Positions 1 to 55,137 of a stretch of DNA of 64,000 nucleotides are shown here, in pieces. The translations under genes were made by a program, and so were the position numbers. Within the stretch, counting starts at the first letter, position 1. Each line of letters starts with the position of its first letter. The notes below the pieces were generated by a model. The model saw nothing but the letters and a program-made list of their open reading frames with translations. It had not been told where the DNA came from and did no database searches. Location of the stretch: the NCBI RefSeq assembly GCF_963921235.1, contig NC_086097.1:42038001-42102000 (forward strand). The letters run 5' to 3'. The stretch comes from Mobula hypostoma (taxonomy: Eukaryota).

Positions 1-656
1 AGGTGAGGGGGGTCCCCAGTGGAAGTCCCTTTACAAGGGAGTCCTCCCCATGCACCTTGGGGATCTCGGCTGGAGGGTGCTGCATAAAGCGGTGCCCTGC
101 AATAAGTTCTTTAGTCTGTACACGGATCTCCCAGCCGCGTGTCACTTCTGCGGGCTGGAGGAGACCGTGTACCACATGTACGTGGAGTGTGTGAGGCTGC
201 AGCCCCTTTTCGCGTTTTTGCGTGGGCTGCTTCTCGCCTTCTGGTTGCATTTCAGTCCCACCCTATTTATATATGGTCATCCAGTAAGGAGGGGGGCACA
301 GAGGGATGAGGATGTCCTTGTCAACTTGCTCCTGGGGCTGGCGAAAATTGCCATCCGTGGCTCCTGGAAAAGGGTGGCAGGAGGTTCTCCCCGGGCGGAC
401 TGCCTGGCTATGTTTAGGGGGTATGTTCGTGCCCGGGTGAACATTGAAAAGGAATACGCACAGTCCACGGCGACCGTAGAGGTGTTCCGGGACCGTTGGG
501 CTCCGCGGGGTGTAAATGCCATCATTGATGAGGATGGCAATATATTGGTTTAAGATGTATTGTCTGTATGTAGTGTAGTAAATATGTTAGTCAGTGGGTT
601 TGTAAATATTGTATAGCACCGACATTTGTAATAAAGAATTTTGTAAAAAAAAAAAA
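1..656 (+). mobile_element. 3' end of Tx1-clade (L1 group) non-LTR retrotransposon: ORF2 C-terminus, 3' UTR, poly(A)
   Basis: ORF 50..553 has a zf-RVT-type motif CHFCGLEETVYHMYVEC and a Tx1-like C-terminus (NLLLGLAKIAI...FRDRW). AATAAA at 630-635, A12 at 645-656, then an abrupt join to Gypsy integrase sequence. The 5' part lies outside the window. Confidence 0.85.
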
Positions 657-659
657 TAA

Positions 660-2775
660 TACATGTTTTGGCCCATTCACTGACCTGTTTACGAAGTCCA
701 TGCCACACGAACCTGTTGGAGACCAGCCGGACAGTTGTCCTGATGGAGGGGTGCGCTAAGTTGTGAATGGACTCGAAAACCCGCCGGCGCCAGGCTGCTG
801 GGACGACGGGGCGGGGTTGGCCGGTAGCGACGTCACATAGTAGAGTCCTCTCACCTGGGCCTACGGGGAGGTCTTGGAGCTGCAAACCGGAGACTGCAGT
901 CCTGTAACTGGGGATCTCAGTGTCTGCCTGCTGTGCCTCTGCCAGCGCTGCATAGTCCACCCCCTGGGACAGGGCCTGTATGGTAGGTCTGGAAAGTGCG
1001 TCCGCCACGACGTTGTCCTTTCCCAGGACATGCCGGATGTCCGTCGTGTATTCGGAGATGTAGGACAGATGTCGCTGCTGGCGGGACGACCAGGGGTCGG
1101 ACACCTTAGTGAACGCAAAGGTAAGCGGTTTGTGGTCTGTGAACGCGGTGAAGGGCCTACCTTTTAAGAAGTACCTGAAATGCCGGATTGCCAGGTATAG
1201 TGCCAATAGCTCCCGGTCGAAAGCACTGTATTTGAGTTCGGGTGGTCGTAGGTGTTTGCTGAAGAACGCCAGGGGTTGCCAGCGACCCTCGATGAGTTGT
1301 TCCAGCACTCCACCGACCGCTGTGTTGGATGTGTCCACCGTGAGGGCAGTAGGAATGTCCGTTCTGGGGTGCACTAGCATCGCGGCATTTGCCAAGGCTT
1401 CTTTAGTTTTAACGAAAGCGGTTGCGGCCTCTTCGTCCTAGGTAATGTCCTTGCCCTTACCCGACATTAGAGTGAACAGGGGTTGCATGGTTCGGGCTGC
1501 TGAGGGGAGGAAACGGTGGTAGAAATTCACCATACCCACAAATTCCTGCAGGCCTTTGATTGTGTTGGGTCGGGGGAAGTTGCAGACCGCGTCTACCTTG
1601 GCGGGCAGCGGGGTTGCCCCGTCTTTAGTAATCCTGTGGCCCAGGAAGTCAATGGTGTCGAGTCCGAACTGGCATTTGGCTGGGCTTGTAAGGCCGAATT
1701 CGCTCAGGCAGGAGTAGAGCTGGCGGAGGTGGGACAGATGCTCCTGCCGACTACTGCTGGCTATGAGGATATCGTCCAAATAGATGAATGCAAAGTCCAG
1801 GTTGCGTCCCACCGCATCCATTAGCCGCTGGAAAGTCTGTACGGCATTCTTTAAACCAAACGGCATTCGGAGGAATTCGAAAAGTCCGAACGGGGTGATA
1901 AGTGCTGTTTTGGGGATGTCGTCCGGATGTACAGGGATTTGATAGTATCCCCGGACGAGGTCTACCTTGGAAAAGATTCTTGCGCCATGTAGGTTTGTTG
2001 CGAAGTCTTGAATGTGCGGCACAGGGTAGCGGTCTGGCGTTGTAGCCTCGTTCAGTCTGTGGTAGTCACCGCATGGTTGCCAGCCCCCCGTTGCCTTGGG
2101 CACCATGTGAAGGGGGGAGGCCCATGGGCTGTCGGACCATCGTATGATCCCCAATTCCTCCATCTTCTTGAACTCCTCCTTCGCCAGTCGGAGCTTGTCC
2201 GGGGGAAGCCTTCGAGCACGGGCGTGGAGGGGTGGTCCCTGGGTCGGGATGTGGTGCTGTATTCCGTGTCTGGGCATGGCTGCCGTGAACTGCGGTGTCA
2301 GTACTGATGGGAAATCTGCCAGGACCCTGGTGAATTCGTCGTCGGACAGCGTGATGGAGTCCAGGTGTGGGGCTGGCAACTGTGCTTCACCCAGGGAGAA
2401 CGTTTGAGAAGTCTTGGCGTGGACTAATCGCTTCCCTTGCAGGTCGACCAGCAGGCTGTGGGCTCGTAGAAAATCCACCCCCAGGAGTGGTTGGGCCACG
2501 GCGGCCAGTGTGAAGTCCCACGTGAACCAGCTGGAGCTGAACTGTAGCCGCACCGTGCGGGTGCCGTAGGTTCGTATTGTGCTGCCATTAGCGGCCCTCA
2601 GGGTGGGTCCCGGTTCTCTGTTGCGGGTGTCGTAATTCGTTGGAGGTAAGACGCTGATCTCCGCTCCGGTGTCGACCAAAAAGTGGCGTCCCGACTGCTT
2701 GTCCCAGACATACAGGAGGCTGTCCTGATGGCCAGCCGCCGTAGCCATCAGCGGCGGCTGGCCCTGGCGTTTCCC
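660..2775 (-). pseudogene. pol: Gypsy pol (protease, RT, RNase H, N-terminal integrase) with an in-frame stop at 1438-1440
   Basis: Protease [37 protein letters not shown]; RNase H LTVDTS, YSAFDRELLA, FTDHKPL, NVVADALSR; integrase HNLAH...WAKTC cut off at about 660. TAG sits where Trp is expected (DIT*DEE). Confidence 0.92.
2730..2775 (-). promoter_or_regulatory. -1 ribosomal frameshift signal at the gag/pol overlap
   Basis: Slippery heptamer G GGA AAC in the gag frame (2775-2769), 5-nt spacer, then a perfect 12-bp stem GGCCAGCCGCCG/CGGCGGCTGGCC with a 10-nt loop. Confidence 0.85.
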
Positions 2776-3449
2776 GGGAATTTGCAGGGCGGTCTGCAGC
2801 GGTGGGCCTCTGTACCCCACCGCTGGTGGTAGAAACACCATTGTTCTTTGGGTTCCTCACTCCCGTCGTCGGGTTTTGTAGGCTCTGCTGCCGGGCCTGG
2901 TCTGGTCTGCCGTTGGGCACGCGGCTTGGTGATCTGTGCGATGGACGCCCCTCTCTCTTTCCTGGCATTCCACAGCACATCTGCCCGGGCCGCCACCTCC
3001 CAGGGGTTGCTGAAATCTGCGTCGGACAGGCATATGTCCTCGGGCAGTTGCTCTAGGAACGCCTGCTCAAACATGAGGCGGGGTTTGTGTCCTTCAGCCA
3101 GGGCCAGCATCTCGTTCATTAATGCTGACGGCGGCCTGTCTCCCAAACCATCCAGGTGCATTAAGCGGCGTGCTCGTTCGCGCCGTGAGAGTCCGAAAGT
3201 CCTTATGAGCAGGGCCTTGAATGCTGTGTATTTGCCGTCCTCCGGGGGCGACTGTATAAACTCCTCAACTTGTGCAGCTGTCTGCTGGTCGAGGGAGCTC
3301 AGCACGTAGTAGTAGCGAGTGGACTCCGAGGTTATCTGCCGAATGTGGAATTGAGCTTCTGCTTGTTCGAACCATAAATGGGGTCGCAGTGTCCAGAAGC
3401 TTGGCAGTTTTAACGAAACTGTGTGAACAGATGCAGCGTCGGTCATCTC
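2748..3449 (-). CDS. gag: Gypsy gag-like protein (start codon uncertain)
   Basis: ORF 2748..3506(-): VSLKLPSFW...[13 protein letters not shown]-terminus and a C-terminal [14 protein letters not shown] Cys/His motif. The upstream part of the tracked ORF overlaps the PBS/LTR, so the real start is downstream. Confidence 0.85.
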
Positions 3450-3472
3450 TGGTCCAAATATCGTTTGGGCCA

Positions 3473-3484
3473 TCGGGGTCACCA
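3473..3484 (-). promoter_or_regulatory. Primer binding site complementary to the tRNA-Trp 3' end
   Basis: Minus strand TGGTGACCCCGA matches the first 12 nt of the tRNA-Trp PBS known from avian leukosis/sarcoma viruses (TGGTGACCCCGACGTGAT). Confidence 0.85.
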
Positions 3485-3486
3485 AT

Positions 3487-3772
3487 TGTATCGGTGTGCT
3501 ACACACAGCGCTAGAATAACCACACGGAGTCGGTGAGTTAGAGTTGCGATGAAAGAGACTTATTCAAACTTCGCGGCCTGCTTTAAAGCCTTCCCGTTCC
3601 CGCCCTCCCTGGGGCGGGACTACTGTGGGGAATGCATATTCCCAGACCCTTTCTGCGCGCGGGATTTTCCCCCTGCTGGTGAAGATGGCCTGGCGCCCTT
3701 TCTGGGGCCGGCCCTCTGCCTGCGCGCGCTGTTGTGAGCCGGTTCGTGTGCGCCAGAAAGTGGGTCGCCACA
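3487..3772 (-). repeat. 5' LTR (286 bp) of the Gypsy element
   Basis: The minus strand starts TGTGGCGACC (3772) and ends CCGATACA (3487), followed 2 nt later by the PBS. Confidence 0.85.
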
Positions 3773-6754: not shown

Positions 6755-7360
6755 GTGGCTGCTCGTCAAGTTCGACGATGACAGAAGACCTGTGCGGGAG
6801 AGATTTTAAAAGTGGAAAAGACATTGCTCTGGGGCAGTTCCTCTCTGTCAACTTCAGAAGACCAGGACCAGTGGTATGAAGAAGCGTCACGAACTGAGGT
6901 CGTCCTTGGTTGCAGTGCATGGCCGTGTTGTCTTCTATGCCTCGTCATGCCCTTTGCTCTCTCTATGGAACATTGCAGTACTGCCTTCCTAGCTGTTGGA
7001 TCTCAGTGTGGATTTCATCTGCCCAGTCCGTCCAAGCTGACTTTGCACGTTGGGACCAGCACGTCCCTATCTCACCAGGGTATGAGGCCACTGGCTACCC
7101 TTTGCATGTTAGGACCAGCATGTCCCTATCTCACCAGGGTTCGAGGCCACTGGCTACCCTTTGCATGTTAGGACCAGCATGTCCCTATCTCACCAGGGTT
7201 CGAGGCCACTGGCTACTCTTTGGCTTCGCCCACCTGTCGAAGCGCTGTCCTGGGGTGGGGCTGCTGTAGCTTGCAAACAGTATCAAGTGGGGACCAAAGG
7301 AGAGTGAGATGCCCCAGAACGGACACAGCAAGCCCCTTCACCAGAGGTGGTAACTCTCCC
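6755..7360 (-). mobile_element. Non-autonomous RTE-derived element (RTE-like 5' head joined to RTE-like 3' tail)
   Basis: Minus-strand head CCACCTCTGGTGAAGGGGCTTGC resembles the BovB/Rex3 5' motif. Tail GTCATCGTCGAACTTGACGAGCAGCC resembles the RTE 3' end at 49842-49868. No RT ORF. Confidence 0.55.
7041..7222. repeat. Tandem repeat, 59-bp unit, about 3 copies
   Basis: Units start at 7041, 7100 and 7159; copies 2 and 3 are nearly identical. Confidence 0.95.
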
Positions 7361-16644: not shown

Positions 16645-18451
16645 GTCCAATTAGACCCATTGCCTCAGCTTGCTCCTGCCCCACTGAGCTCATTTCTGCA
16701 TACCTCGACACTTTTTTTCCCCCCACCTATGTTCGTTACGCTTCTCAGGATCTGAATTTTTTCCAATAATTTTAAGTTCCCTGGCCCCCACCACTTTATT
16801 TTCACTATGGATGTCCAGTCCCTATATACCTCCATCCCCCACCAGGATGGTCTCAAAGCTCTCCACTTCCTTTTGGATTCCAGACCTAACCAGTTCCCCT
16901 CTACCACCACTCTCCTCCGTCTAGTGCTATTAGTCCTTACTCTTAATAATTTCTCCTTTGGCTCCTCCCACTTCCTCCAAACTAAAGGTATAGCCATGGG
17001 CACCCGTATGGGTCCCAGCTATGCCTGCCTTTTCGTTGGCTTTGTGGAACAATCCATGTTCCAAACCTATACTGGTATCCGTCCCCCACTTTTCCTTCAC
17101 TACATCAACGACTGCATTGGCACTGCTTCCCACACACATGCTGAGCTTGTTGACTTTGTTAACTTTGCCTCCAACTTTCACCCTGCCCTCAAATTTTCCT
17201 GGTCTATCTCTCTATCTCTTGCAAAAATGCCATCCCCTTCTCGCAATTCCTCCGTCTCCGCCGCATTTGCTCTCAGGATGAGGCTTTTCATTCCAGGACG
17301 AGGGAGATATCCTCCTTTTTTAAAGAAAGGGGCTTCCCTTCCTCCACCATCAACTCTGCTCTCAAACGCATCTCTACAATTTCACGCACATCTGCCCTCA
17401 CCCCATCCTCCCGCCACCCCACTAGGAATAGGGTTCCCCTTGTCCTCACCTACCACCCCACCAGCCTCCGGGTCCAACATGTACTCCTCCGTAACTTCCC
17501 CCACCTCCAACAGTATCTCACCACCAAGCACATCTTTCACTCCCCGCCCCCCCAACTTTCTGCTTTCCACAGGGATCACTCCTTATGCGACTCCCTTGTC
17601 CATTCCTCCCATCCCTCCCCACTGATCTCCCTCCTGGCACTTATCCTTGTAAGTGGAGCAAGTGCTACATATGCCCTTACACTTCCTCCCTTACCACCAT
17701 TCAGGGCCCCAGACAGTCCTTCCAGGTGAGGCGACACTTCACCTGTGAGTCGGCTGGGGTGATATACTGCGTCTGGTGCTCCCGATGTGGCCTTCTATAT
17801 ATTGGCGAGACCCGACGCAGACTGGGAGACCATTTCACTGAACACTTATGCTCTGTCCGCCAGAGAAAGCAGGATCTCCCAGTGGCCACACATTTTAATT
17901 CCACATCCCATTCCCATTCTGATATGTCTATCCACGGCCTCCTCTACTGTAAAGATGAAGCCACACTCAGGTTGGAGGAACAACACCTTATATTCCGTCT
18001 GGGTAGCCTCCAACCTGATGGCATGAACATTGACTTCTCTAACTTCCGCTAATGCCCCACCTCCCCCTCGTACCCCATCCTTTATTTATTTATTTATTTT
18101 TCCCCCTTTCTTTCTCTTTTTTCTCCCTTTGTCCCTCTCACTATATCTTCCCCTGGTGCTCCCCTCCCCCTTTCTTTCCCCCCTAGGCCTCCCGTCCCAT
18201 GATCCTCTCCCTTCTCCAGCCTTGTATCCCTTTTGCCAATCAATTTTCCAGCTCTTGGTTCCATCCCTCCTCCTCCTCCTGTCTTCTCCTATCATCTCGG
18301 ATCTCCCCCTCCCCCTCCCACTTTCAAATCTCTGACTACCTCTTCTTTCAGTTAGCACTGACGAAGGGTCTCGGCCCAAAACGTCAACTGTGCTTCTTCC
18401 TTTCGATGCTTCCTGGCCTGCTGCATTCCACCAGTATTTTGTGTGTGTTGG
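16645..18451 (+). mobile_element. 5'-truncated Penelope-like element: RT, GIY-YIG endonuclease, 3' pLTR
   Basis: RT MDVQSLYTSIPH, GIAMGTRMGPSYACLF, LHYINDCI (YIDD site mutated). Endonuclease GVIYCVWCSRCGLLYIGETRRRLGDHFTEH...GMN. Internal deletion/frameshift near 17210-17220. Hammerhead motif at about 18354-18390 with GAAA changed to AAAA. Confidence 0.95.
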
Positions 18452-20809
18452 TTAAATGTACTTCTTTATCTTCCGTGTTGCTGGGGTGAAGTGAAGCTGT
18501 CATAGTTCTGGATTCAACCAAATTGTTATTAATATTAATTTATCATTAAACAAAATGTTTTCAGCTATTAAGATCATGCTTCGCGTAGGTATTAAGGTCA
18601 AATTGACAGCATTTTAGACCATAGGAGAAGAATTAGACCATTTGGCCCATTGAGTCTGCTCTGCTATTGCTTCATGGCTGACTTAACCCAATCCCGATCC
18701 CACTCAACCCTACTCTCATGCCTTCTCCCTGTAACCTTCAACGCCCTGACTAATTATGAACCCTATCAACCTCCGCTTTAAATATACCCAGTGACTTGGC
18801 CTCCACAGTAATGAGTTAGACTGATTCACCACGTATATCGATTATACCTGTACTCAGATGTTGTATCTTAGTTCCTTTCGTTGCTAATAATTTTGAAATT
18901 ATCATCAGTGGTTGATTATGGACCATGTTACCAAGCTGAGTGTTATTTTCACCCATGAATAAGTTATGTGTTTTGCAGCAATCTGGATTAGCTATGTGGT
19001 CAATGAATAATAATCAGTCACTGAAAAGTGTGTGCCCCTTGTATTCTTATTTGCAAAATGGTACAAAAATAACAGAAACAACAAAATTGCATGTTTAAAC
19101 ACAAATTACCCACCATTAGTAAAGAAGTTGTTCGGTTAAAAACTCAATTATCAACAACTTCAGGGAGACAGCATACTATATATCCATATGTGTAGTATAA
19201 TGGTATGAACTGATGTTTCTCTCTCTCCTGGTTGATTACCTCCTGTGATTCGTTCATATTAAGGGGAAACAGCAGCACTTTAAATGTAGTTGCTGATTAT
19301 TCTCTGTCTTACTGTCAAAAATGTTGAGATTTCCCCTCAAATACAGAAATTCTGACACTTTGGTGAACCATTTTATTTCCACAGATCTGTTCCTCAAGTC
19401 CAGCAAGGGAATCCAAAACTGCAGCAATTCCACGTAACTGTTACTGTGGATCTGCACAAGCACTTGGTAGAGAAATGGCTTCATTTATTTCAATGGATGG
19501 AATTTGATGTGAAGTTCTAAGATAGTTCCATTTACATTTTTTGAAAAGATTTTTTGAATATTTTTTATGGCTTGAGCCGTTGTGGTTTAGAAGATGCTGT
19601 CAAAAAGTCTTAAAGTGCTACAGTGCATTTTGTAGTCTGATACATGGTGCAGCCGTAGTCCACAAACTATACAAGGAGCGCATGATAGATGAAGAGTCAA
19701 TCAAACAGGCTGCTTTGCATTAGGTAGGGTTAATTTTTAATGTTTTTGGAGCTGCACTCATCCACACAATTTGAGAGTATTCCACACTTTTGACTTAGGC
19801 TTTGGAGAGTCAAGAGGTAAGAAGGTGTGAGTCTTGTTATCTCAAATTAACAAGGCTCAGAACTTCTTGTGTAGTTACAGAATTTACATGTTCTGATCAT
19901 CAGTGACTCCAAGGATATTGAGCTGGAGGCAGCAGAGATGGCAATGTCATTCAATCTCAGAGAAAGTCTGTTAGGCTCTCTCTTTACAAAGATGGTCATT
20001 CACACGTGACACAACATTATTTGATGCTTATCATCCTATGCTTGATCACTATCCCGTTTTACTGCATGTAGCATGAACCTCTTAGTTTGCAAAGGAATTG
20101 TGAATAGAATTGAAAATAGTGCAATCATCAGCCAAGAAACCCATTTCTGAACTCATGAAGAAGAGGACAGAGATCAGTACAGTGTCAATCCTTTAACCTA
20201 ATCAAAGATCAATCTAACCCTTCTCTCCCACATGGCCCTCCATTTTTAAGATGTTATCTTAGATGCGAATCTGTGTCATTCCTACCTCCCTGAGGTACAC
20301 CGACAGAAATGTCCTGGGGTTGTGGCAGCATATCTGAATTGGCCACAGCTTTTTGTGACATAGTGATAAAAGGCATAATCTTTGCTTGTCACAATGCTGA
20401 AGTTGAACTTGTAGGACCTTGCAGTGTGAGTGGTTTAAAAAAAGATAGGAGCAGCAGGATATCATCAAGACAACACGAATGTGAACTTTTAATTAACAAA
20501 TCCTTCACAATGTCCAAGTAATTATAAACTGTCCTATATGCTGCTGTTTTCAGATTGCACTGAGTTGTACTTGTCTGTTTTAAGCTTTCATTCATTCGTT
20601 CAGTTGTCTCTCCATCCCACTTCCTATTCTGTTTTATAAACAACTCCGTTGATATCCTCGCCTCACCTGTTCAGTGCTTTCCTTTAGCTTGGTAGGTGGG
20701 GTGTTCTAGAAAGTGCTGAGGCTCCTTTTTATTGAATTATAGAATGGTAGAAGGCCATTTGCCCAGCATGTGGGCGACAGTCAAAGAGGAACTGTCCACT
20801 CTTGTTATT

Positions 20810-29959: not shown

Positions 29960-31938
29960 AGGGGGGGCGTCACGTGATGACGTGGGACTGAGACGTGTGA
30001 ATCCAGCTCTCCTGTAAAAAATCAGCAAAGTACCGTTTAAAAAAAGCAAAGTTAATAAATACTTTCCGAAAACTACTCATAAACTTCGTAAGACTACTCT
30101 ACGATATGCCTCATAAACCACAACAGAAGAAGTCTGTTGTTGTGAAGTCGCCATGAGATGGGAAGAAAAAAGGGCCTACTGCAGCGATAGAGCCTCGGAT
30201 TCAGGTTGGATCTCCTTCAGAGGAGACGCATTTTATCTCTGGCGTAGAAGAACGGGGAGCAATGGCAGCGGTAGCGGTCTCTCGGAAATTGATGCCGGAA
30301 TTGCACATGCGTAAAGTAGTACGCATGCGCAAATCGACACAACTTAAACTACAAGAACCGACGGCCACTGCAACTGTAAGTGACTCAGAGTCAGAATTGG
30401 ATATAGCAGAGAATACAGATGAAGAGGAGGAGGAAGAACTGGAAGAGACTGGAAGTAAAGGAGACGACGGAGACATAAGAGAGGCTTTATTGCAATTAAC
30501 GGCTGAATTGAGAAAATTAAGAACAGAGTTTAGAGACGTGAAGATGTGCTATGATAAAGCTATGAAAAGACAGGATAAAATGGATAAGAAACTTCAGAAG
30601 ATGGAAAGAACAATGGAGCATATTAACGATAGAGTGGAAAAAACAGAAACTGATGTACTTGTCTGGAACACGGAAAGAAATCGACTCTTGGAGAAAGTGG
30701 ACGTGTTGGAAAATTTTAGTAGACGTAATAACATCAAAATTATCAGTCTTAAGGAAGGTATAGAGGGAGATAATCCACTAGAATTTTTTCAAAGATGGAT
30801 CCCGAAAACTTTGCAAATGAAAGAGGAAGACCGATCAATTGAAATTGAATGGGTACATAGAGCTCTAAGACCAAAACCACAAGATGACCAATATCCACGA
30901 TCAATTTTAATAAAATCCTTAAGATTTCAAGACAAGGAAAGGATCCTACAGGTGGCTGCCCAAGCTGCCAAGAAGAGAAAAGGGCCACTGATGATAGAAG
31001 GGAAGAAAATTTTTTTCTACCCTGACATAAGTTATGAACTTCTGAAGAGAAGGAAGAAATTTAATCCAGTGAAAAAAGCCCTATGGGATCACGGTTATCA
31101 ATTTATATTGCATAATCCTGCAACCTTGAAGATTTTTTTGCCTGGTGGAGAAAAAAATATTCACCAAATACAAGAACAAACCTAGGGGAGCGAGATGGAT
31201 TGAAGATGAAGACTGGATTAAAGATTAGGCCTGTTGGATTTTTAGGCGGATGAATATATAAATATATTATTAATTATATGAGGGAAGGGAAGAAAGGTTA
31301 AAATTTGAGGAATATTAGCTGGGAATAATGACATTATTTTTTTATATATATATACAATTTTTTGTTACGGGGGAGCTGGAAGAAACACTGACCAATCACT
31401 ACATTACTCGTGTGCAACCATGGCAATAGCCACGACCCGCACAATGGAGGGGGTAGTGTTGTGTATCTTTTCATTCACAACAGTAGTCGGGGGGGGGGTC
31501 TTTTGTTTTTCTCTTTTTGTATCTTATCTATCTTTTTTTTCTTTTTGCCTGGATGATTGGGAGGGAAACACATAGCAACATGGTGAGGTTCAAAGAGATT
31601 CCCCAGGGAACTATGAGAGTTGAGAAGCTAAGTAATGTTTTAGATTTTAAGAGATAAATATGAAACATTTTTGAATATTTGGAGCCCTTATTTATAGCTC
31701 CGATGATGAAGATCTTGGTTCCTTGGGGGGGGAAGTAACAAATATATATTAAATTTATTTTTATCCCATGGAGTATGTGCAAACCTTCCAATAGTCAGGT
31801 GGTTCTTTTTTTTTCTTTCTTTTCTCTTTAGGTAGGAGTATATACCGGGGGGGGAGGGTTAAGAAGAGGGGGGAGGGTGGATATTATTTTCTCATGTATT
31901 ACTTTGAAAACTTAATAAAAATTATATAAATAAAAAAA
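29960..31938 (+). mobile_element. L1-clade element with ORF1 only (ORF2 almost entirely missing), 11-bp TSD
   Basis: 5' G-run at 29961-29967, ORF1, AATAAA and poly(A) at 31914-31940. TSD AAACTCATTCG at 29949-29959 and 31939-31949. Confidence 0.9.
30106..31185 (+). pseudogene. L1 ORF1p (coiled coil, RRM, CTD); probable start 30106 with TGA at 30154-30156; open 30262..31185
   Basis: LENFSRRNNIKI, IEWVHRAL, PRSILIK, IFFYPD, PATLKI motifs. ATG 30106 is in frame with the tracked ORF. Confidence 0.85.
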
Positions 31939-34900: not shown

Positions 34901-36730
34901 TGTAATTATTAAAACTGTGTTTTAGTAATACATATCTGTTTAGAAAAACAAACAATACAATCACTGACCGTTGCACAATCAACAACAATAGATTTGAAAT
35001 GTCCCCAAAATCTCCATTAATTTCTCTTTAGATCTCTAGGTTGACATGATGTTACTTATAAATTTAAAAAAAAACAAGCTTTCACTCAGCCATTTTGGGA
35101 ACTCTAGGCATTGACATTTTCTCCAGCTTTTACTGCCCAACCGATGTTTACAGAGTAAAGGAAGGAATAAAAACAGTTTGAAACCTGGATCGTTGCTTTT
35201 CATTATTGCTTCCTATAACTGGATTTTTGCCAGTTTTTTTCCTGTCAAAACTAAATGCCCACTGGACTGATAAGCTTTGCTGTATGAACATCAAAAAGGC
35301 CATCTTCCTTGCCGTCGAGGATGTGTATACTGGTGCACCGTAATAAATACCTGAAGTCTGCTGACAGACAGTATCATTTACCGGTTATATGATTTCTGTG
35401 CAGATTACTTGATTTTGTAAAATGAAATTACTTAGACACTCTTGTCTAAACAGCTCTTTTTGTGTGCTGGTGTACAGAGTTTTATCAAGGTTATGACTGG
35501 GTACTTTGTACTTCGGTAATAAATTTAGGGATTTTCAACATGACAAATGAATGAACTTCAAAAGTAATGCTGGTCTTAACTAGATGTCTTAACATTTCTT
35601 GAGTTGCTGCCTTGAGAGTTTGACATACTCCATCTGAGCACCTTCTTTAATTTTGCATTGTCTGTAATGGATCGAGTAAAATGACCTTGACTGTCGTCAG
35701 GTTCCTCGTGCATTCATTTCCTCCATGATCTCCCCTTTCTCTAACAGCAGGAGATTAAGACCTTTGTCCTTGTGAGTGGTGATTGGAGGAAAGTATAGGG
35801 GGCATTGGAGGTAGTGGTGGTGGGTGTGTAGAATACACTGCCAGGAGTAGTGGTTGAGGCAGATACATTAGGGGCATTTAGATAGGTACACGGATGATAG
35901 AAAAATGGAGAGCTATATAGGAGGGAAGGATTAGATTGATCTTTGAGTAAGTTTAAAGTTCGGCTCAACATCGTGGAATGAATGTCCTATATTCTATGTT
36001 CAATGTTCTGTGTTCTAATGATAGAATATTTCATCAATCCTTTCAGGAGTGCTTTCTTTCAGCAGGTCAAAACAAAAAGTTCCTGCTAGCTAATTTGGCC
36101 CTCAAACCATAATGTGGGGCCCTTTGTCTGTAGTCTTCATTTATTAAAAAAAACAACAGCAGAGATAGGGTAGCAGGTAACTAGTTACCCTTCCTATCAC
36201 ACACTTGACATAATTCCCATTTCCCAAGGCACATATCCTAACCAGATCTGTTGCCACTACAGAATATGAAGTAAATCACTGCAGAATGCACTGCTGGGCA
36301 AAGTGCTTACAACTACTTTACTTGGAATGTGCATCAGGCAATTGATGGTATCAAGAATTCTACTGGTTCACACTAGTGGAAAGCAGGTAGCATAATTCTG
36401 TACACAGAATAAAATGCATGCAGGTCACAAAAACGAGGAATATGTAAGATCCAGTAATTCTAAAGGAGTTCTACTGGTCTCATGAGCTAGACTGATAAAG
36501 TTTCCCCTGGGGCTGCTACTATTTAGGTAACATTACTTCAAACAGTAGAAAGAGAAATACTCAGTAGGGTGAAGCTTTCACGTTGTGTGTTAAATCTAAA
36601 AGATTTAAAAGGCATAGTACTGAAGTTCAGAGTTTACAGAACTCTAAGCATTTGGTAAATCATTATCAGGACTGGTTAACACTAGGATAAATTTATTAAC
36701 GAAACCATCATAATGGTTGAACAACTTTAC

Positions 36731-37180
36731 GTCTAAACGTCGACTGTACCTTTTCCTATAGATGCTGCCTGGCCTGCTGCGTTCACCAGCAACTTTGATG
36801 TGTGTTGCTTGAATTTCCAGCATCTGCAGAATTCCTGTTGTTTGCGTTTTAAAATTCACTACTGCGAAGCCTCTTCCGGTGATGCCTACACCGAAGAAGA
36901 TTAGATCCTCTCTTCGACTGGAGTTCAGTGAAACCATCTCTCACTGCTCCCCATCTGTAAATTCTTTGGCTCTTCAACTTCTTGGCCATATTTTGACTCA
37001 GACTCGCTATCACAGACTCGCTATCTTTTTGGATCTTTCCCTCCCCCTCCCACTTTCAAATCTCTTACTCTTCCTTCAGTTAGTCCTGACGAAGGGTCTC
37101 GGCCTGAAACGTCGACTGTACCTCTTCCTAGAGATGCTGCCTGGCCTGCTGCGTTCACCAGCAACTTTGATGTGTGTTGC
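36731..37180 (+). mobile_element. Mini-PLE: partial pLTR, ORF start, deletion, second pLTR in direct orientation; 14-bp TSD
   Basis: TSD TTGAACAACTTTAC at 36717-36730 and 37181-37194. Direct repeat 36735-36813 vs 37107-37185. Confidence 0.9.
37081..37118 (+). ncRNA. Minimal type I hammerhead ribozyme motif (intact core)
   Basis: Helix I AGUC/GACU; CUGACGA at 37086-37092; short helix II; GAAA at 37106-37109; palindromic ACGU in place of helix III; GUC cleavage triplet ending at 37113. Confidence 0.85.
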
Positions 37181-37867
37181 TTGAACAACTTTACAGCCAT
37201 TTTGGAAGCCAACCTGAATTCAGAGTGCTGAAAGTCACCCACTCGTATAGGGGAAGACAACTGATTCAGAAAACAACCCATTTTCCAGCCATAGGTATTG
37301 TGGACCTGGCCCTCTATATTTGATGAGTAACTCATTCCACACCAAAGCAGTAAGGATATGGCTGCAGCCCCTTCTGCCAAAATTGATGTTAAATAAAATT
37401 TAAAAATGTTGGTTACAAATAATAAAATCACAATTTTTTGTAGTTCATTATAGCTACAATTTTTTTGTATGGCTCAACTTTGAATAATTTTGTCAAAAGA
37501 AAGTATAAGTATGTGAGAAGATGCAACCCCACCTTTATTAATGGAAAAGAATGGATTTTTGCTACTTATGCAGAATATCAATAAAGCAATTCAGATTCGT
37601 GGAGAAATTTACACTGACAAAGTTGTAATTGCTTTCTGTATTTGCATTTGTTTTATCTCTAGCTGTGAAATGACTGCTGAATACAATATTTAAGCTACTA
37701 GCTCGGGGGAACAATTATGCAGGCACTTTCAGTTGAGCAAAGGGAGTTAATTGGATATGGAAAGTTACTATTGCATTGCTTCCTTTTCCTCCATCCACTT
37801 AACTAAAAGAGAAGTACAATAATTCAGCTAATAGTTAAAATAAAAAAGCACTTGCATTTACCTGGAG

Positions 37868-41955: not shown

Positions 41956-42878
41956 TTAGCTTAAGTCCCTTAAGTAAAACCACAGAATCGTCTATAGTGA
42001 ATGAAGGCTTTCCTTCAGGTTAATAATGTAATAGCATTGGAGGAAACAAGGGGGAACACCTAGAATTTGAACTGCAATGGCTAGGAAGTTTAAAAAAAAT
42101 GCTTTTCTTTGAGAAAGGTCCAGAAGCAAATCAAATGATACTCCACTCCCATTCTATTTACATAACTTTACTCAGGCCTTACTGGTAAAATTAACATTTA
42201 TTCTCCATCTGTAATCCCGCCTGTACTGCACTCGATCAGCTTAGGCGTCTGTGCTCAGCCCTTGAAGTTACATAATGTGCATGGTTGATAAATTGCACTA
42301 ATGCCAAAATCAGAGTGCTACCAACTACACCACAGCTGACCAGGAGAAACATGGGTTTTATAAGCAAATTTCAAACGGCAATGTGCACCAATCACATCAA
42401 TGCTTCTGGTAAAAATGAACTTGCAATTATTTATAGATGCAAGACATTCTGCAAATGACAGCAAGTGCCGGGTCCTTTCATGCAACTGGGAGGATTATCC
42501 CTGGAAATAATGGTTCCTGTTATTTATACTGGGAGAAATCAAACTTGGATCATATAGCTCTGTATAAAAAATCAGCATTACACTATTCAATTTCTAGGTA
42601 AACATGTTTTAACTAGTAGTTGAAGCATAAATAGATGTTATATATAAATTTATAATCAGCATTGTATCTGTACTGGTGAGAATATCATTGGTCAGGACAC
42701 TAAGAGAATTCTTCTATCATAATTTTATCATGGAGATTTGGAGCAGAGCAGGTTCTCATTTGCGAAGTAATCTTACTAAGAGTCCTCAAGGCTCTATGTG
42801 AGGCCGGAGTCCTCCAGAAACCAAAATGCTGCCACTGATTTAACTAAACAAAACCAAAGTAGATTATCTTCAATAATT

Positions 42879-43082
42879 TAAATGCAAACAACAGGAATTC
42901 TGCAGATGCTGGAAATTCAAGCAACACACATCAAAGTTGCTGGTGAACGCAGCAGGCCAGGCAGCATCTGTAGGAAGAGGTGCAGTCGACGAAGGGTCTC
43001 GGCCTGAAACGTCGACTGCACCTCTTCCTACAGATGCTGCCTGACCTGCTGCGTTCACCAGCAGCTTTGATGTGTGTTGTTG
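42879..43082. mobile_element. 204-bp fold-back PLE insertion with a 14-bp TSD
   Basis: 70-bp inverted arms at 42922-42991 and 43010-43079 (2 mismatches), 18-nt loop. TSD TATCTTCAATAATT at 42865-42878 and 43083-43096. Confidence 0.92.
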
Positions 43083-43206
43083 TATCTTCAATAATTGTAC
43101 ATATTATTCACAGAACTCACACTGTCATTACATATGCATTTGACGCTTGCCTTAATTCAACATATGATTGTATACTTGCCCCACAAAGAGTTTCAGACCT
43201 GAAACA

Positions 43207-51345: not shown

Positions 51346-52228
51346 TTGCAGAAATATAACATATTTCACAACATGTGCCAGTGATTAAATCTGATTCTGA
51401 TTCTGAAATGCTTCAAAATGTAATTCCTCAAATTATGTCTTTGAGTCTGTGCTTTTAAAATTTATCTTCCATGTGTGAGACATTTAATTGTTCTGGTCTT
51501 GGTTTCGGAATCATTTATGCTTCAATTAAAACGTTTACCCTAATTTTCATCTCATTATCTTTCATCTTACATTAATTTAAGATAGGAAAATGATGCAGGT
51601 GTGCTGATAAAACTCAGCACTAAAATCTTCCAGGAGTGACTCTGCCAAGTTTAGACCAACCCGTATCCCTCTGACTTAAGTCAAAATATTGTTGGAATAT
51701 TTACTGCAAAGTGAAATGACCATGTGAACCTGTTCATTATAATCCATATACTTTACACACATGTTGGCAAAGGCATCAAGATAAATGAATCAAAGGCAGG
51801 TAAATGACACGAGGCTATAGACCAATCATGATCTAATCAAGTTTTGAAGCAGCCTAAAGCAGTTTTACTAATACCATGTTTATCATTCTTCAAAACTGTT
51901 CTAAAATTACTTTTATCAAAAATAACAATTTTTTCTTTCTTTTGTTAAACTGTTCTCCATTAGTACCCCTGTAGCATCTTCACATATCCTTTCTGCATGT
52001 CTTTTTGCATTATTTCAACAGTTTGCAAAGGTTTCTTTCACAATTATTCATTGCTTCAAAATACACTAAATACCAAGATTTTATTCTGCTGTTCCTCAGA
52101 GAAAAATAGCAATTTTAACAATTCAAACTATAACTGTATTTCAATTTGAAGCCTATTGCCCATCCTCACTGGACTTATCTCATGTAGATAGTTTCATTTC
52201 CATTACAACCTAGGTGCATGAATACTCA

Positions 52229-53629
52229 AACAACACACATAAAAATTGCCGGTGAACGCAGCAGGCCAGGTAGCATCTCTAGGAAGAGGCACAGTTGACG
52301 TTTCAGGCCGAGACCCTTCGTCAGGATTAACTGAAAGAAGAGATAGTAAGAAATTTGAAAGTGGGAGGGGGAGGGGAGATCCAAAATGATAGGAGAAGAC
52401 AGGAGGGGGAAGGGATGGAGCTAAGAGCTGGAAAGTTGATTGGCAAAAGGGATATGAGAGGATCATGGGACGGGAGGCCTAGGGGGAAAGAAAGGGGGAG
52501 GGGGGAAGCCCAGAGGATGGGCAAGGAGTATAGTGAGAGGGACAGAAGGAGAAAAAGGAGAGAGAGAAAAAAAATTAATAATAAATAAATAAACAAATAA
52601 ATAAATAACAGATGGGGTACGAAGGGGAGGTGGGGCCTTAACGGAAGTTAGAGAAGTCAATGTTCATCCCATCAGGTTGGAGGCTACCCAGACAGAATAC
52701 AAGGTGTTGTTCCTCCAACCTGAGTGTGGCTTCATCTTTACAGCAGAGGAGGCCGTGGATAGACATGTCAGAGTGGGAATGGGATGTGGAATTAAAATGA
52801 GTGACCACTGGGAGATCCTGCTTTCTCTGGCGGACAGAGCGTAGGTGTTCAGTGAAATGGTCTCCCAGTCTGCGTCTGGTCTCGCCAATATATAGAAGGA
52901 CTCGTTGGGAGCACCGGACGCAGTACATCACCCCAGCCGACTCACAGGTAAAGTGTCGCCTCACCTGGAAGGACTGTCTGGGGCCCTGAACGGTGGTGAG
53001 GGAGGAAGTGTAAGGGCATTTGTAGCACTTGTTTTGCTTACAAGGATAAGTGCCAGGAGGGAGATCGGTGGGGAGGGATGGGGGATACGAATGGACAAGG
53101 GAGTCACGTAGGGAGCGATCCCTGTGGAAAGCAGAGAGAGGTGGGGAGGGAAAGATGTGCTTGGTGGTGGGATCCCGTTAGAGGTGGCAGAAGTTACGGA
53201 GAATAATATGCTGGATCTGGAGGCTGGTGGGGTGGTAGGTGAAGACAAGGAGAACCCTATTCCTAGTGGGGTGGCGGGAGGATGGGGTGAGAGCGGATGT
53301 GTGTGAAATGGGAGAGATGCACCTCCCGCCACCCCACTAGGAATAGGGTCCCATGATCCTCTCATATCCCTTTTGCCAATCAACTTTCCAGCTCTTAGCT
53401 CCGTCCCTTCCCCCTCCTGTCTTCTCCTATCATTTCGGATCTCCCCCTCTCCCTCCCCCTCCCACTTTCAAATCACTTACTATCTCTTCTTTCAGTTAGT
53501 CCTGATGTAAGGTCTCGGCCTGAAACGTCGACTGTACCTCTTCCTATAGATGCTGCCTGGCCTGCTGCATTCACCAGCAATTTTTATGTGTGTTGCTTGA
53601 AATTCCAGCATCTGCAGATTTCCTCGTGT
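52229..53629 (-). mobile_element. Penelope-like element (GIY-YIG + pLTR) with an inverted pLTR at 53345-53629; 15-bp TSD
   Basis: ORF 52638..52964: GVMYC...LYIGETRRRLGDHFTEH. TSD GTGCATGAATACTCA at 52214-52228 and 53630-53644. Long inverted terminal repeats. Confidence 0.95.
52292..52333 (-). ncRNA. Minimal hammerhead motif (core intact, helix I imperfect)
   Basis: Minus strand CTGACGA-AGGGTCTCGGCCT-GAAA-CGTC-AACTG. Confidence 0.7.
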
Positions 53630-55137
53630 GTGCATGAATACTCATTGCCTAGTTGATTGTCCTTTCCTGAAACACAAAACTGACTTGTTACAAAAAGGAT
53701 AAAAAGAACTTTGAAGTTTGTCTTTTATTTCCTTTCTGCTAGGGAAATGAACTTACCCTTTGTTGAGCCAAGATGCAAACATCACTTATGTTTCACACTC
53801 TATTTTGCAACTAGCACATGGAATATACCTGCTGAGGGTCGAATAGGAACTCAAGTCTACATTGATTTTCCTAACTGGAATTTGTAAGGAATTGTGAATT
53901 GAATTCAAACCTATTAAGCACTATTTCAGAAATTCTGGATTACACAAATATAATTTTCAGAAATTAGTTGCAAAAAATGAGGTTTTAACAACTCATGCCT
54001 TCAGCTTTCTTGTTACTAATGACTCTGACAGAATTTACAATTCTATTATTAAGTTCTTGATTTATGAACAACACAGTGGAAGATAGAATGCAAACGATGA
54101 AGGGCGAGGTGGGAGAGTTCATACAAAAACTAAAAAAAATCTTTAAAATGAAACAAACCTAATGATTTTTTGTTGGGCATTAATAATCATTAGTGATCAA
54201 ACCAAGCAGCAGAGTGGGATGTTCACAAATGTATTAATGTAACTATCTGTGCTTCATGTATAAAGCTACAAGCAAATTAAATTTTATTAGTTGTCACGTA
54301 AACACAGCTATAGTGGCATAGGATTATGTTTTCCATGTTGAAGGTTCTACAATTAAATGTTGATTAACTGCAGATCATTAAAGTAGCAGTTATGATTAAT
54401 CATTCTGAAAAACTTGTAATAACTGGTTTTGAAATAAAAACACATGGACCTAAATAAATCCATGATCATAATAACCAATATACAAACATGTTGTGGCTGA
54501 ATTATGAACAGTAATGCTGGTTACATAAGCATGGGAATGTACTGTATAAGCAAAGGTAATGAGCCTTGAATAAAACACAACATACTGGATTTTCTCAGCA
54601 CGTCAGGCAGTATCTTTGACAAAAGAAAGAGAATTAATATTTCAGATTTAAAGTTGCAGTTATTTTCATTGTAGTAAATGAAAATGTAAATTCTTTGAGC
54701 CCATGTTATGATCATTATGAGTATTCATCAACAATTTAAGGGGAAGTAGTTATTTCTATTCATCAACGATTTAAGGGGAAGTACACTGTTTTTGCTTTGC
54801 ACTTTTGCCTAATGAATCTTCAGGCTTGGGACATGGATTATATTCTTAATTCCTCCATGTCCTCACACTTTCCCATCCTCCAATCATTAATTTGATAGGC
54901 CTAATGCCATGCACTTGACTCCGATTTGTGCACCCCCACCCCCTTCAACCAGTATTGATGTTAAGTTCTTGTTCTTGCATTTTGTTTGCTTTAAAGCACC
55001 TCTTATAACCGTTTTGTTGACTTGACCTTGAACATCCATTTTGTTATGATTTGTTGCCCACTTGAATCATAAAGTCAACCTTTGACATTCTAGAATCGCA
55101 AGCATGCACCAGTAGGCTCAAGGATAGCTTTAATCCT

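What the first reader, a model, noticed from the sequence alone, without database searches (positions are those of the whole stretch)
36717..37194. 450-bp retrozyme-like mini-Penelope: hammerhead-to-hammerhead unit with a 14-bp TSD
Seen: the insertion starts 11 nt before a hammerhead cleavage site (AAACGTC/GACTG at 36735-36746). It runs through the pLTR into an ORF start (MPTPKKIRSSLRLEFSETISHC..., probably the PLE N-terminus). It then jumps across a junction marked by a 13-bp duplication CAGACTCGCTATC into a second pLTR with an intact hammerhead. The two GUC sites (36741 and 37113) are 372 nt apart. Known: non-coding hammerhead-flanked retrozymes yield small linear/circular RNAs. Inference: a candidate non-autonomous unit, although the first core is incomplete here.
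Basis: partly seen in the sequence, partly recalled or inferred. Interest (0 to 1): 0.7.

Follow-up and report, generated by a model that had tools for sequence, protein, structure and literature searches.

The report
Gutted Penelope retrotransposon copy, not retrozyme
This 450-base insert is made of the two ends of a very abundant Penelope-type jumping gene, joined where the middle was likely lost in a single accident; because only one of its two ribozyme sites has a catalytic core, it is predicted not to cut itself out as a small circular RNA, so it is most likely an ordinary relic.

Summary
The anatomy is real: an exact 14-bp target-site duplication, 79-bp terminal repeats, two GUC sites 372 nt apart, the first 44 codons of a Penelope-like (PLE) ORF, and a 13-bp junction duplication. 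It is not hammerhead-to-hammerhead. The first site keeps only 7 nt upstream of the cut and no core, so the second site has no cis partner for this dimer-type ribozyme. Both ends are typical of this very abundant ray PLE family (Neptune-type linker): the 3' end sits at one of two family end-points, and the 5' end falls inside the ribozyme. About 2.8-2.9 kb (inferred) was lost at a junction that fits microhomology end joining with templated synthesis. Both insertion ends are present at the same locus in two organisms, so the insertion is old. Three alleles of this copy make up under 0.7% of family depth. The copy number of the junction itself could not be measured (no genome held), so a small non-autonomous family is not excluded. 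Internally deleted PLE copies and PLE-derived retrozymes are both already in print. The scan noted other deleted PLE copies of different sizes in this genome (unchecked notes). Verdict: ordinary; interest low.

The parts
36717..36730 (+). Left copy of the 14-bp target-site duplication (15 bp if organism B's A at 36731 is ancestral)
   Evidence: Exact match to 37181-37194; allele in run X5
36731..36734 (+). 3-4 nt at the 5' junction that do not align directly to the element (filler or a small skip)
   Evidence: Alignment A1
36735..36746 (+). 5'-truncated first hammerhead: helix III half, cut triplet ending at 36741, 3' strand of helix I; no catalytic core
   Evidence: no core motif in 36400-36741
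36735..36846 (+). Upstream pseudo-LTR, including the stretch between the two family 3' end-points (about +72 to +104 from the cut; the 'tail')
   Evidence: BLAST to other window copies
36882..37015 (+). First 44 codons of the PLE ORF (37014-37015 native by inference)
   Evidence: 57% identity to residues 1-44 of shark protein P0119; phmmer hits P0118-P0120; N-terminal profile, 0 of 2000 shuffles as high
36999..37025 (+). Deletion junction: 13-bp direct repeat, period 14; 3-nt primer-like repeat, 5 inserted nt (37016-37020), 5-nt microhomology (37021-37025) shared with the 3' untranslated region
   Evidence: loose end at 37021 in run X5 reads as ordinary 3' untranslated sequence
37021..37081 (+). 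Last 61 nt of the PLE 3' untranslated region
   Evidence: Matches copies at 18.3, 52.4 and 53.4 kb, which carry more upstream element sequence
37082..37118 (+). Minimal type I hammerhead: helix I 37082-85/37114-17, core 37086-92, extra A 37093, helix II 37094-97/37102-105 (G-U closing pair), palindromic helix III half with no loop, cut after 37113
   Evidence: Folding; matches the min-HHR description in PMC4209133; no Rfam hammerhead hit
37107..37185 (+). Downstream pseudo-LTR repeat ending at the first family 3' end-point (+67 to +72)
37181..37194 (+). Right copy of the target-site duplication; first 5 nt also match the element

Best explanation
This is a TSD-flanked insertion made of the 5' and 3' ends of a very abundant Penelope-like retrotransposon (Neptune-type linker), likely a single partial-tandem copy whose interior of about 2.8-2.9 kb was lost once, and it is predicted not to release a hammerhead-to-hammerhead RNA. 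Steps: (1) The element's endonuclease nicked an AT-rich target and reverse transcription started about 70 nt downstream of the ribozyme cut site, helped by 5 nt of microhomology (end-point shown; priming inferred from the anole PAc work). (2) cDNA ran through the downstream ribozyme, so the template was uncut or religated there (shown by continuity). It ended 7 nt past the upstream cut site, inside the ribozyme zone where most truncated family copies start (shown). (3) The interior was removed by a microhomology join with a short templated insertion of the loop-out type, during integration or later (signature shown; enzyme and timing inferred). I favour host end joining over a reverse-transcriptase jump at roughly 60:40. 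(4) The insertion became fixed before organisms A and B split and has since collected private mutations (both ends shown in both organisms; whether B shares the deletion was not seen). With one core, only the upstream site could be cut in cis, giving no unit-length RNA (inferred from the published dimer model).
For: Family identity: the RT fragment at 16756-17184 hits ray proteins at 84-87% identity and ~900-aa PLE ORFs; C-terminal GIY-YIG with a Cys-rich linker, the Neptune/Nematis feature in PMC8557442. Of 9 other 5'-truncated hits, 7 start between -31 and -3 (one 34-nt fragment left out). Loose ends pile up at the same places in public runs. Two other family insertions in the window have 14- and 15-bp TSDs. 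The junction meets all three SD-MMEJ criteria quoted in PMC5728401: 13-bp motif, at the join, 3-nt primer repeat, 5-nt microhomology. Microhomology-mediated internal deletions of PLE copies are described (PMC3846280; a 2.84-kb deletion in PMC8557442). Age: both insertion ends lie on single-copy-depth contigs in organism A (0 differences) and organism B (9 substitutions in 265 nt, 1 insertion in 243 nt). Not a source copy: its alleles at 36900, 36919 and 36961 are at most 0.11%, 0.46% and 0.69% of the depth in the two DNA runs. The two repeats differ at 2 positions, both matching alleles of other copies; one is a common family allele (T 5-13% of depth). No core upstream of site 1; the cis-cutting fold costs 17.4 kcal/mol; the 372-nt circle folds like shuffles (z -0.53, 28 of 100 as stable). 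PAc inserts from uncleaved RNA (PMC11167929).
Against: The junction's copy number was never measured: no genome is held, and none of the 32 pieces listed spans it (159,501 more not shown). Summed depth in the bins before and over the junction is 18,000-19,000 in X1 against 8-10 in the flanks, leaving room for tens to hundreds of copies; the tool warns that depth is no copy number. The private alleles may post-date insertion and then say nothing about a junction-sharing family. Two differences in 2 x 79 bp are also what 1-2% decay gives, so the two-template argument is modest (about 7% chance under one template). The unit keeps the RT start region and the ORF start, which in PAc are what the protein needs, so it is built like something that could be mobilised in trans. 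Folding energies ignore protein assistance, which the PAc ribozyme required.
Confidence: 0.73

Rival explanations
1. One member of a small amplified family of internally deleted, non-autonomous mini-PLEs, moved in trans as uncleaved linear RNA by the parent's enzyme.
For: A clean TSD flanks the whole unit. It retains the RT start region, leader and ORF start. Non-autonomous PLE derivatives with pLTRs exist (MRC1 and others, PMC8557442). Depth near the junction leaves room for some copies.
Against: Depth just before the junction is only about 5-10% of that over the ORF start and 0.03-0.11% of that over the ribozyme, so it cannot be a major family. No second copy of 36850-37025 in the window. 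Other deleted copies noted in this genome have different sizes (AI notes, unchecked). The 5' repeat lacks the upstream part of the pLTR.
Confidence: 0.17
2. A retrozyme: reverse transcription went 1.2 times round a 372-nt circular RNA made by hammerhead cleavage and ligation.
For: The insert is one unit plus 78-79 nt of terminal redundancy, as more-than-unit copying of a circle would give (proposed for PLEs in PMC4209133). 372 nt is in the range of animal retrozymes (150-450 bp, PMC7229834; mean 363 bp in one chondrichthyan).
Against: Every partial-tandem PLE insertion has this redundancy. The two repeats differ at family-variable sites. Only one core is present. The circle has no unusual structure. 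No tandem array of the unit in the window. In PAc no reads begin or end at the cut site, and 8 of 9 predicted Xenopus retrozymes did not cleave in vitro.
Confidence: 0.07
3. Two separate PLE pieces that landed together, or recombined, and only look like one element.
For: pLTR fragments are dense (17 hits in 64 kb), PLEs can target their own pLTR region, and the two repeats may come from different templates.
Against: One exact TSD brackets the whole unit and there is no inner TSD. The pieces lie in the natural order and strand of a partial tandem.
Confidence: 0.03

Closest known systems
Endonuclease-bearing Penelope-like elements, partial-tandem insertions with pLTRs, tail and TSD; internally deleted copies (PMC3846280, PMC8557442; passages read)
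   Same: Truncated upstream pLTR, ORF start, downstream pLTR, TSD, microhomology-marked internal deletion; inverted partners and tails in neighbouring copies.
   Different: Almost the whole ORF is gone; the TSD (14-15 bp) is longer than the 8-10 bp in the rotifer passages; I found no paper describing this ray family (listing only).
PAc (Poseidon of Anolis carolinensis), internal initiation of reverse transcription (PMC11167929; parts 1-2 of 4 read)
   Same: Two 3' end-points 30-40 nt apart downstream of the hammerhead; insertions run through the uncut ribozyme site; AT-rich target.
   Different: Neptune-type linker here; the ORF starts 140 nt downstream of the cut, not inside the ribozyme; 5 nt of target microhomology here, whereas PAc primes without homology.
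Minimal hammerheads (min-HHR) of metazoan PLEs (PMC4209133; parts 1-2 of 4 read)
   Same: Full core, unpaired base before helix II, short helix I, palindromic helix III half without loop; dimer-dependent and weak.
   Different: Helix II is 4 bp with a G-U closing pair here; the paper gives 7-8 bp for schistosome motifs and a conserved G10.1-C11.1.
Non-LTR retrozymes of animals (PMC7229834, passages; bioRxiv 10.64898/2026.07.22.740005, parts 1-3 of 5; supplements not seen)
   Same: Non-coding, 150-450 nt unit, GC under 50% (46.5%), type I hammerhead, PLE origin, long TSD.
   Different: Not a tandem array, one complete hammerhead only, no amplification shown, no circular RNA shown. It would count at best as a monomer derivative.
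[quoted passage not shown]
   Same: Direct-repeat motif made of primer repeat, insertion and microhomology at the join.
   Different: Defined at induced breaks in Drosophila; a reverse-transcriptase jump with re-priming could leave the same scar.

Membership tests
Endonuclease-bearing Penelope-like element (derived copy) | Sequence derived from an element with PLE RT and C-terminal GIY-YIG | tested here: met
   ORF start matches PLE N-termini; the 3' part matches window copies that follow RT/GIY-YIG frames. The Pfam hits themselves are below curated cut-offs.
Endonuclease-bearing Penelope-like element (derived copy) | pLTRs in partial tandem, 5' truncation, optional 30-40 bp tail | tested here: met
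   79-bp repeats; two family 3' end-points
Endonuclease-bearing Penelope-like element (derived copy) | Target-site duplication | tested here: met
   14 bp exact; 14 and 15 bp at two other family insertions
Neptune clade of PLEs | CX2-5CxxC zinc-finger-like linker between RT and EN (shared with Nematis) | tested here: met
   Motif upstream of GIY-YIG in frame 17495-18052; definition from PMC8557442
Neptune clade of PLEs | RT phylogeny groups with named Neptune references | not tested
   No reference set of named PLEs was at hand; the clade label rests on the linker
Minimal type I hammerhead (site 2) | Conserved core, helices I and II, palindromic helix III half | tested here: met
   No covariation support among 12 window copies; no Rfam hammerhead hit
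Minimal type I hammerhead (site 2) | G10.1-C11.1 pair | tested here: not met
   G-U at 37094/37105; C allele in 24-36% of family depth
Minimal type I hammerhead (site 2) | Self-cleavage | not testable with these tools
   Needs in vitro transcription
Non-LTR retrozyme | [quoted passage not shown] | tested here: not met
   Site 1 has no core; 1.2 units only
Non-LTR retrozyme | Non-coding unit of 150-450 nt, GC under 50% | tested here: met
   372 nt, GC 46.5%; no RT or EN coding sequence
Non-LTR retrozyme | Multi-copy family or tandem arrays of the same unit | tested here: inconclusive
   No second copy in the window; private alleles rare; junction copy number not obtainable
Non-LTR retrozyme | Unit-length linear and circular RNA in vivo | not testable with these tools
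   Only assembled contigs were available, which cannot show RNA ends or circles

The most novel reading that the evidence does not exclude
The unit is a caught-in-the-act PLE-derived retrozyme: a 372-nt RNA that keeps exactly the ribozyme, the RT start sites and the ORF-start binding region, is cut with help from the cell's abundant pLTR RNAs or the PLE protein, circularised, and copied 1.2 times round into new sites. It would be a direct record of how animal retrozymes are born from PLEs by one deletion.
Probability: 0.07. Interest if true: 0.55.

Novelty: new member of a known kind. Interest (0 to 1): 0.13.

Why it matters
As read here it matters little: one more decayed, internally deleted PLE copy. 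It does illustrate the raw material from which PLE-derived retrozymes are thought to arise, and it agrees with insertion from uncleaved RNA. If the junction proved amplified and circular RNA were found, it would give a testable single-step origin for animal retrozymes and evidence for the circular-template model of PLE copying, which is proposed but unproven.

Tried and rejected
No whole genome is held, so the genome-wide junction count was not run. Rfam: 0 hits at gathering score in the window; 4 weak, unrelated hits up to E 10 over the insert, none a hammerhead, taken as chance. Word-index protein searches with the 45-aa start and the 100-aa frame across the junction found nothing at E 0.01; both are weak searches. 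In one search, 3 of 6 hits (P0115-P0117) are repetitive proteins; the two I read (P0115, P0117) are unrelated to PLEs, and all three were set aside. DNA pattern scans: 3 metagenome loci, 0 viral, 22 prokaryotic loci; none of the 25 matches beyond about the pattern, so all are chance, and these collections are not expected to hold ray DNA. No RNA holder was listed. The two runs guessed to be RNA (X10, X14) do not cover most flank bins and show none of this copy's three private alleles; this is no evidence on expression. Run X1 may be the window's own sample and is not independent. Only 4 of 24 listed runs were laid, and the tool said some differences and joints went uncounted in X1 and X5. Covariation test of helices I and II on 12 window copies: no support beyond shuffles. 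The bacterial promoter scan is irrelevant to a vertebrate. Look-ups of earlier scan notes by sequence and near this place found nothing. Rejected: that the 5' end marks ribozyme cleavage (it lies 7 nt upstream of the cut, and family 5' ends cluster at -31 to -25); that the 101-codon frame across the junction is a gene (no homologue over its length).

Full report
Observation. The sequence features are as described, with corrections. An exact 14-bp repeat flanks 36731-37180 and is the only 14-mer repeated at 400-520 nt distance in the window. The 79-bp repeats are 372 nt apart and differ at two positions. The junction carries a 13-bp duplication with period 14. Only 7 of the 11 nt before the first GUC match the element, and there is no hammerhead core upstream of it. 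After the junction come 61 nt of normal 3' untranslated sequence before the complete ribozyme.

The family. The window holds 17 pLTR-like hits, two of them in this insert. An RT fragment at 16756-17184 matches ray proteins at 84-87% and many ~900-aa PLE ORFs, so the host is probably a ray (inference). The family's ORF ends in a Cys-rich linker and GIY-YIG domain (Pfam scores below cut-off), the Neptune/Nematis arrangement (PMC8557442, passages). The peptide from ATG 36882 aligns from residue 1 with three shark proteins at 57-59% and scores above all 2000 shuffles on a profile of PLE N-termini. So the unit is the first 274 nt after the cut site, 5 inserted nt, and the last 93 nt before the next cut site. 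With relatives' ORF lengths of about 890-930 aa and a stop-to-cut distance of 333-341 nt, about 2.8-2.9 kb is missing (inferred).

The ends are ordinary. Of 15 other pLTR hits, 6 end at +63 to +73 and 6 at +102 to +105 from the cut site. This mirrors the two internal RT start sites and tail of the anole element PAc, which inserts from uncleaved RNA (PMC11167929, parts 1-2 of 4). The insert ends at the first point, with 5 nt shared with the target. Of 9 other 5'-truncated hits, 7 start between -31 and -3 (one 34-nt fragment left out); this one starts at -6. Public runs show loose ends at the same places. Two more family insertions in the window have 14- and 15-bp TSDs; most other copies tested gave none.

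The junction. The left side reads ORF up to codon 44; shark relatives continue with Ser-His, which fits two more native bases (inferred). Ten nt are then re-copied from 14 nt upstream, and their last five equal the 3' untranslated sequence where the right side begins. This meets the three criteria for loop-out SD-MMEJ quoted in PMC5728401 (passages). A reverse-transcriptase jump followed by re-priming would leave the same scar, so enzyme and timing are open. Microhomology-mediated internal deletions are described for rotifer Penelope copies (PMC3846280, passages), and a 2.84-kb internal deletion for an algal PLE.

Age and amplification. Contigs at single-copy depth cross both insertion ends in organism A (0 differences; possibly the window's own sample) and in organism B (9 substitutions in 265 nt, 1 insertion in 243 nt). 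The insertion therefore predates their split; whether B shares the deletion was not shown. This copy's alleles at 36900, 36919 and 36961 are at most 0.11%, 0.46% and 0.69% of the depth in the two DNA runs, so it has no visible offspring. Against my reading: those alleles may be younger than the insertion, depth over the junction bins (about 19,000 against 8-10 in flanks in X1) leaves room for a small family, and no listed contig spans the junction. The decisive count could not be made.

Could it work as a retrozyme? The complete motif is a minimal hammerhead with a loopless palindromic helix III, which needs a partner and cleaves weakly (PMC4209133, parts 1-2 of 4). Its helix II closes with G-U. 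In cis, core 2 could in principle cut site 1, at a modelled cost of 17.4 kcal/mol (protein help ignored), but site 2 has no partner core, so no unit-length RNA is predicted. The 372-nt circle folds no better than shuffles (z -0.53; 28 of 100). One-and-a-bit rounds on a circle would give identical repeats. The two differences both match alleles in other copies, and one is a common family allele, about a 7% event under one template. This is modest evidence, as two differences also fit ordinary decay. The working definition of an active animal retrozyme, two consecutive complete hammerheads, is not met (bioRxiv 10.64898/2026.07.22.740005, parts 1-3 of 5). That preprint already derives retrozymes from PLE pLTRs and reports them in one cartilaginous fish; its closed supplements may list units like this one.

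Novelty. It works like, and is, a deleted PLE partial tandem; it resembles a retrozyme monomer in size only. Six literature searches listed no paper on this ray family. Earlier scan notes describe other deleted copies of different sizes in the same genome with the same verdict; these are unchecked, and my reading was recorded before I saw them. Verdict: new member of a known kind; interest 0.13; relic 0.73, small mobile mini-family 0.17, circle-derived retrozyme 0.07.

Noticed in passing
window 42865-43096: Palindromic mini-insertion of the same PLE family: inverted arm (-3 to about +104) joined head-to-head to a direct arm (-25 to +66), flanked by a 14-bp TSD; one arm ends at each family end-point.
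   Followed up: partly
window 52214-53644: 5'-truncated PLE copy on the minus strand with an inverted 3' end partner and a 15-bp TSD; a 28-bp inverted match near the inversion junction (53254-53281 / 53322-53349).
   Followed up: partly
window 36882-37184: The deletion leaves the ORF start in an open frame of 100 codons plus stop, running through the 3' untranslated region and ribozyme; no homologue over its length.
   Followed up: partly
table 5 (reference 36800-36846 to 37081-37086): Many low-depth contigs join a family 3' end-point to the 5' edge of the ribozyme, suggesting short head-to-tail pLTR-only tandems (about 100-135 nt units) at scattered junctions; these would be better retrozyme candidates than this locus.
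   Followed up: no
table 7 (reference 37082): Family 5' ends pile up at the 5' edge of helix I (-31), not at the cut site, in both DNA runs.
   Followed up: partly
window 550-3563, minus strand: Gag-, RT- and RNase H/integrase-like frames of an LTR retrotransposon with few stops (read from ORF list only; label from recall).
   Followed up: no
window 30157-31185: 342-aa open frame resembling a LINE-1-type ORF1 protein (label from recall, not searched).
   Followed up: no
window 7041-7222: Three tandem copies of a 59-bp unit, 95% matches.
   Followed up: no
proteins P0118-P0120: Shark gene models annotated as mucin-2-like or uncharacterized begin with a PLE ORF N-terminus; probably mis-annotated transposon sequence.
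   Followed up: partly
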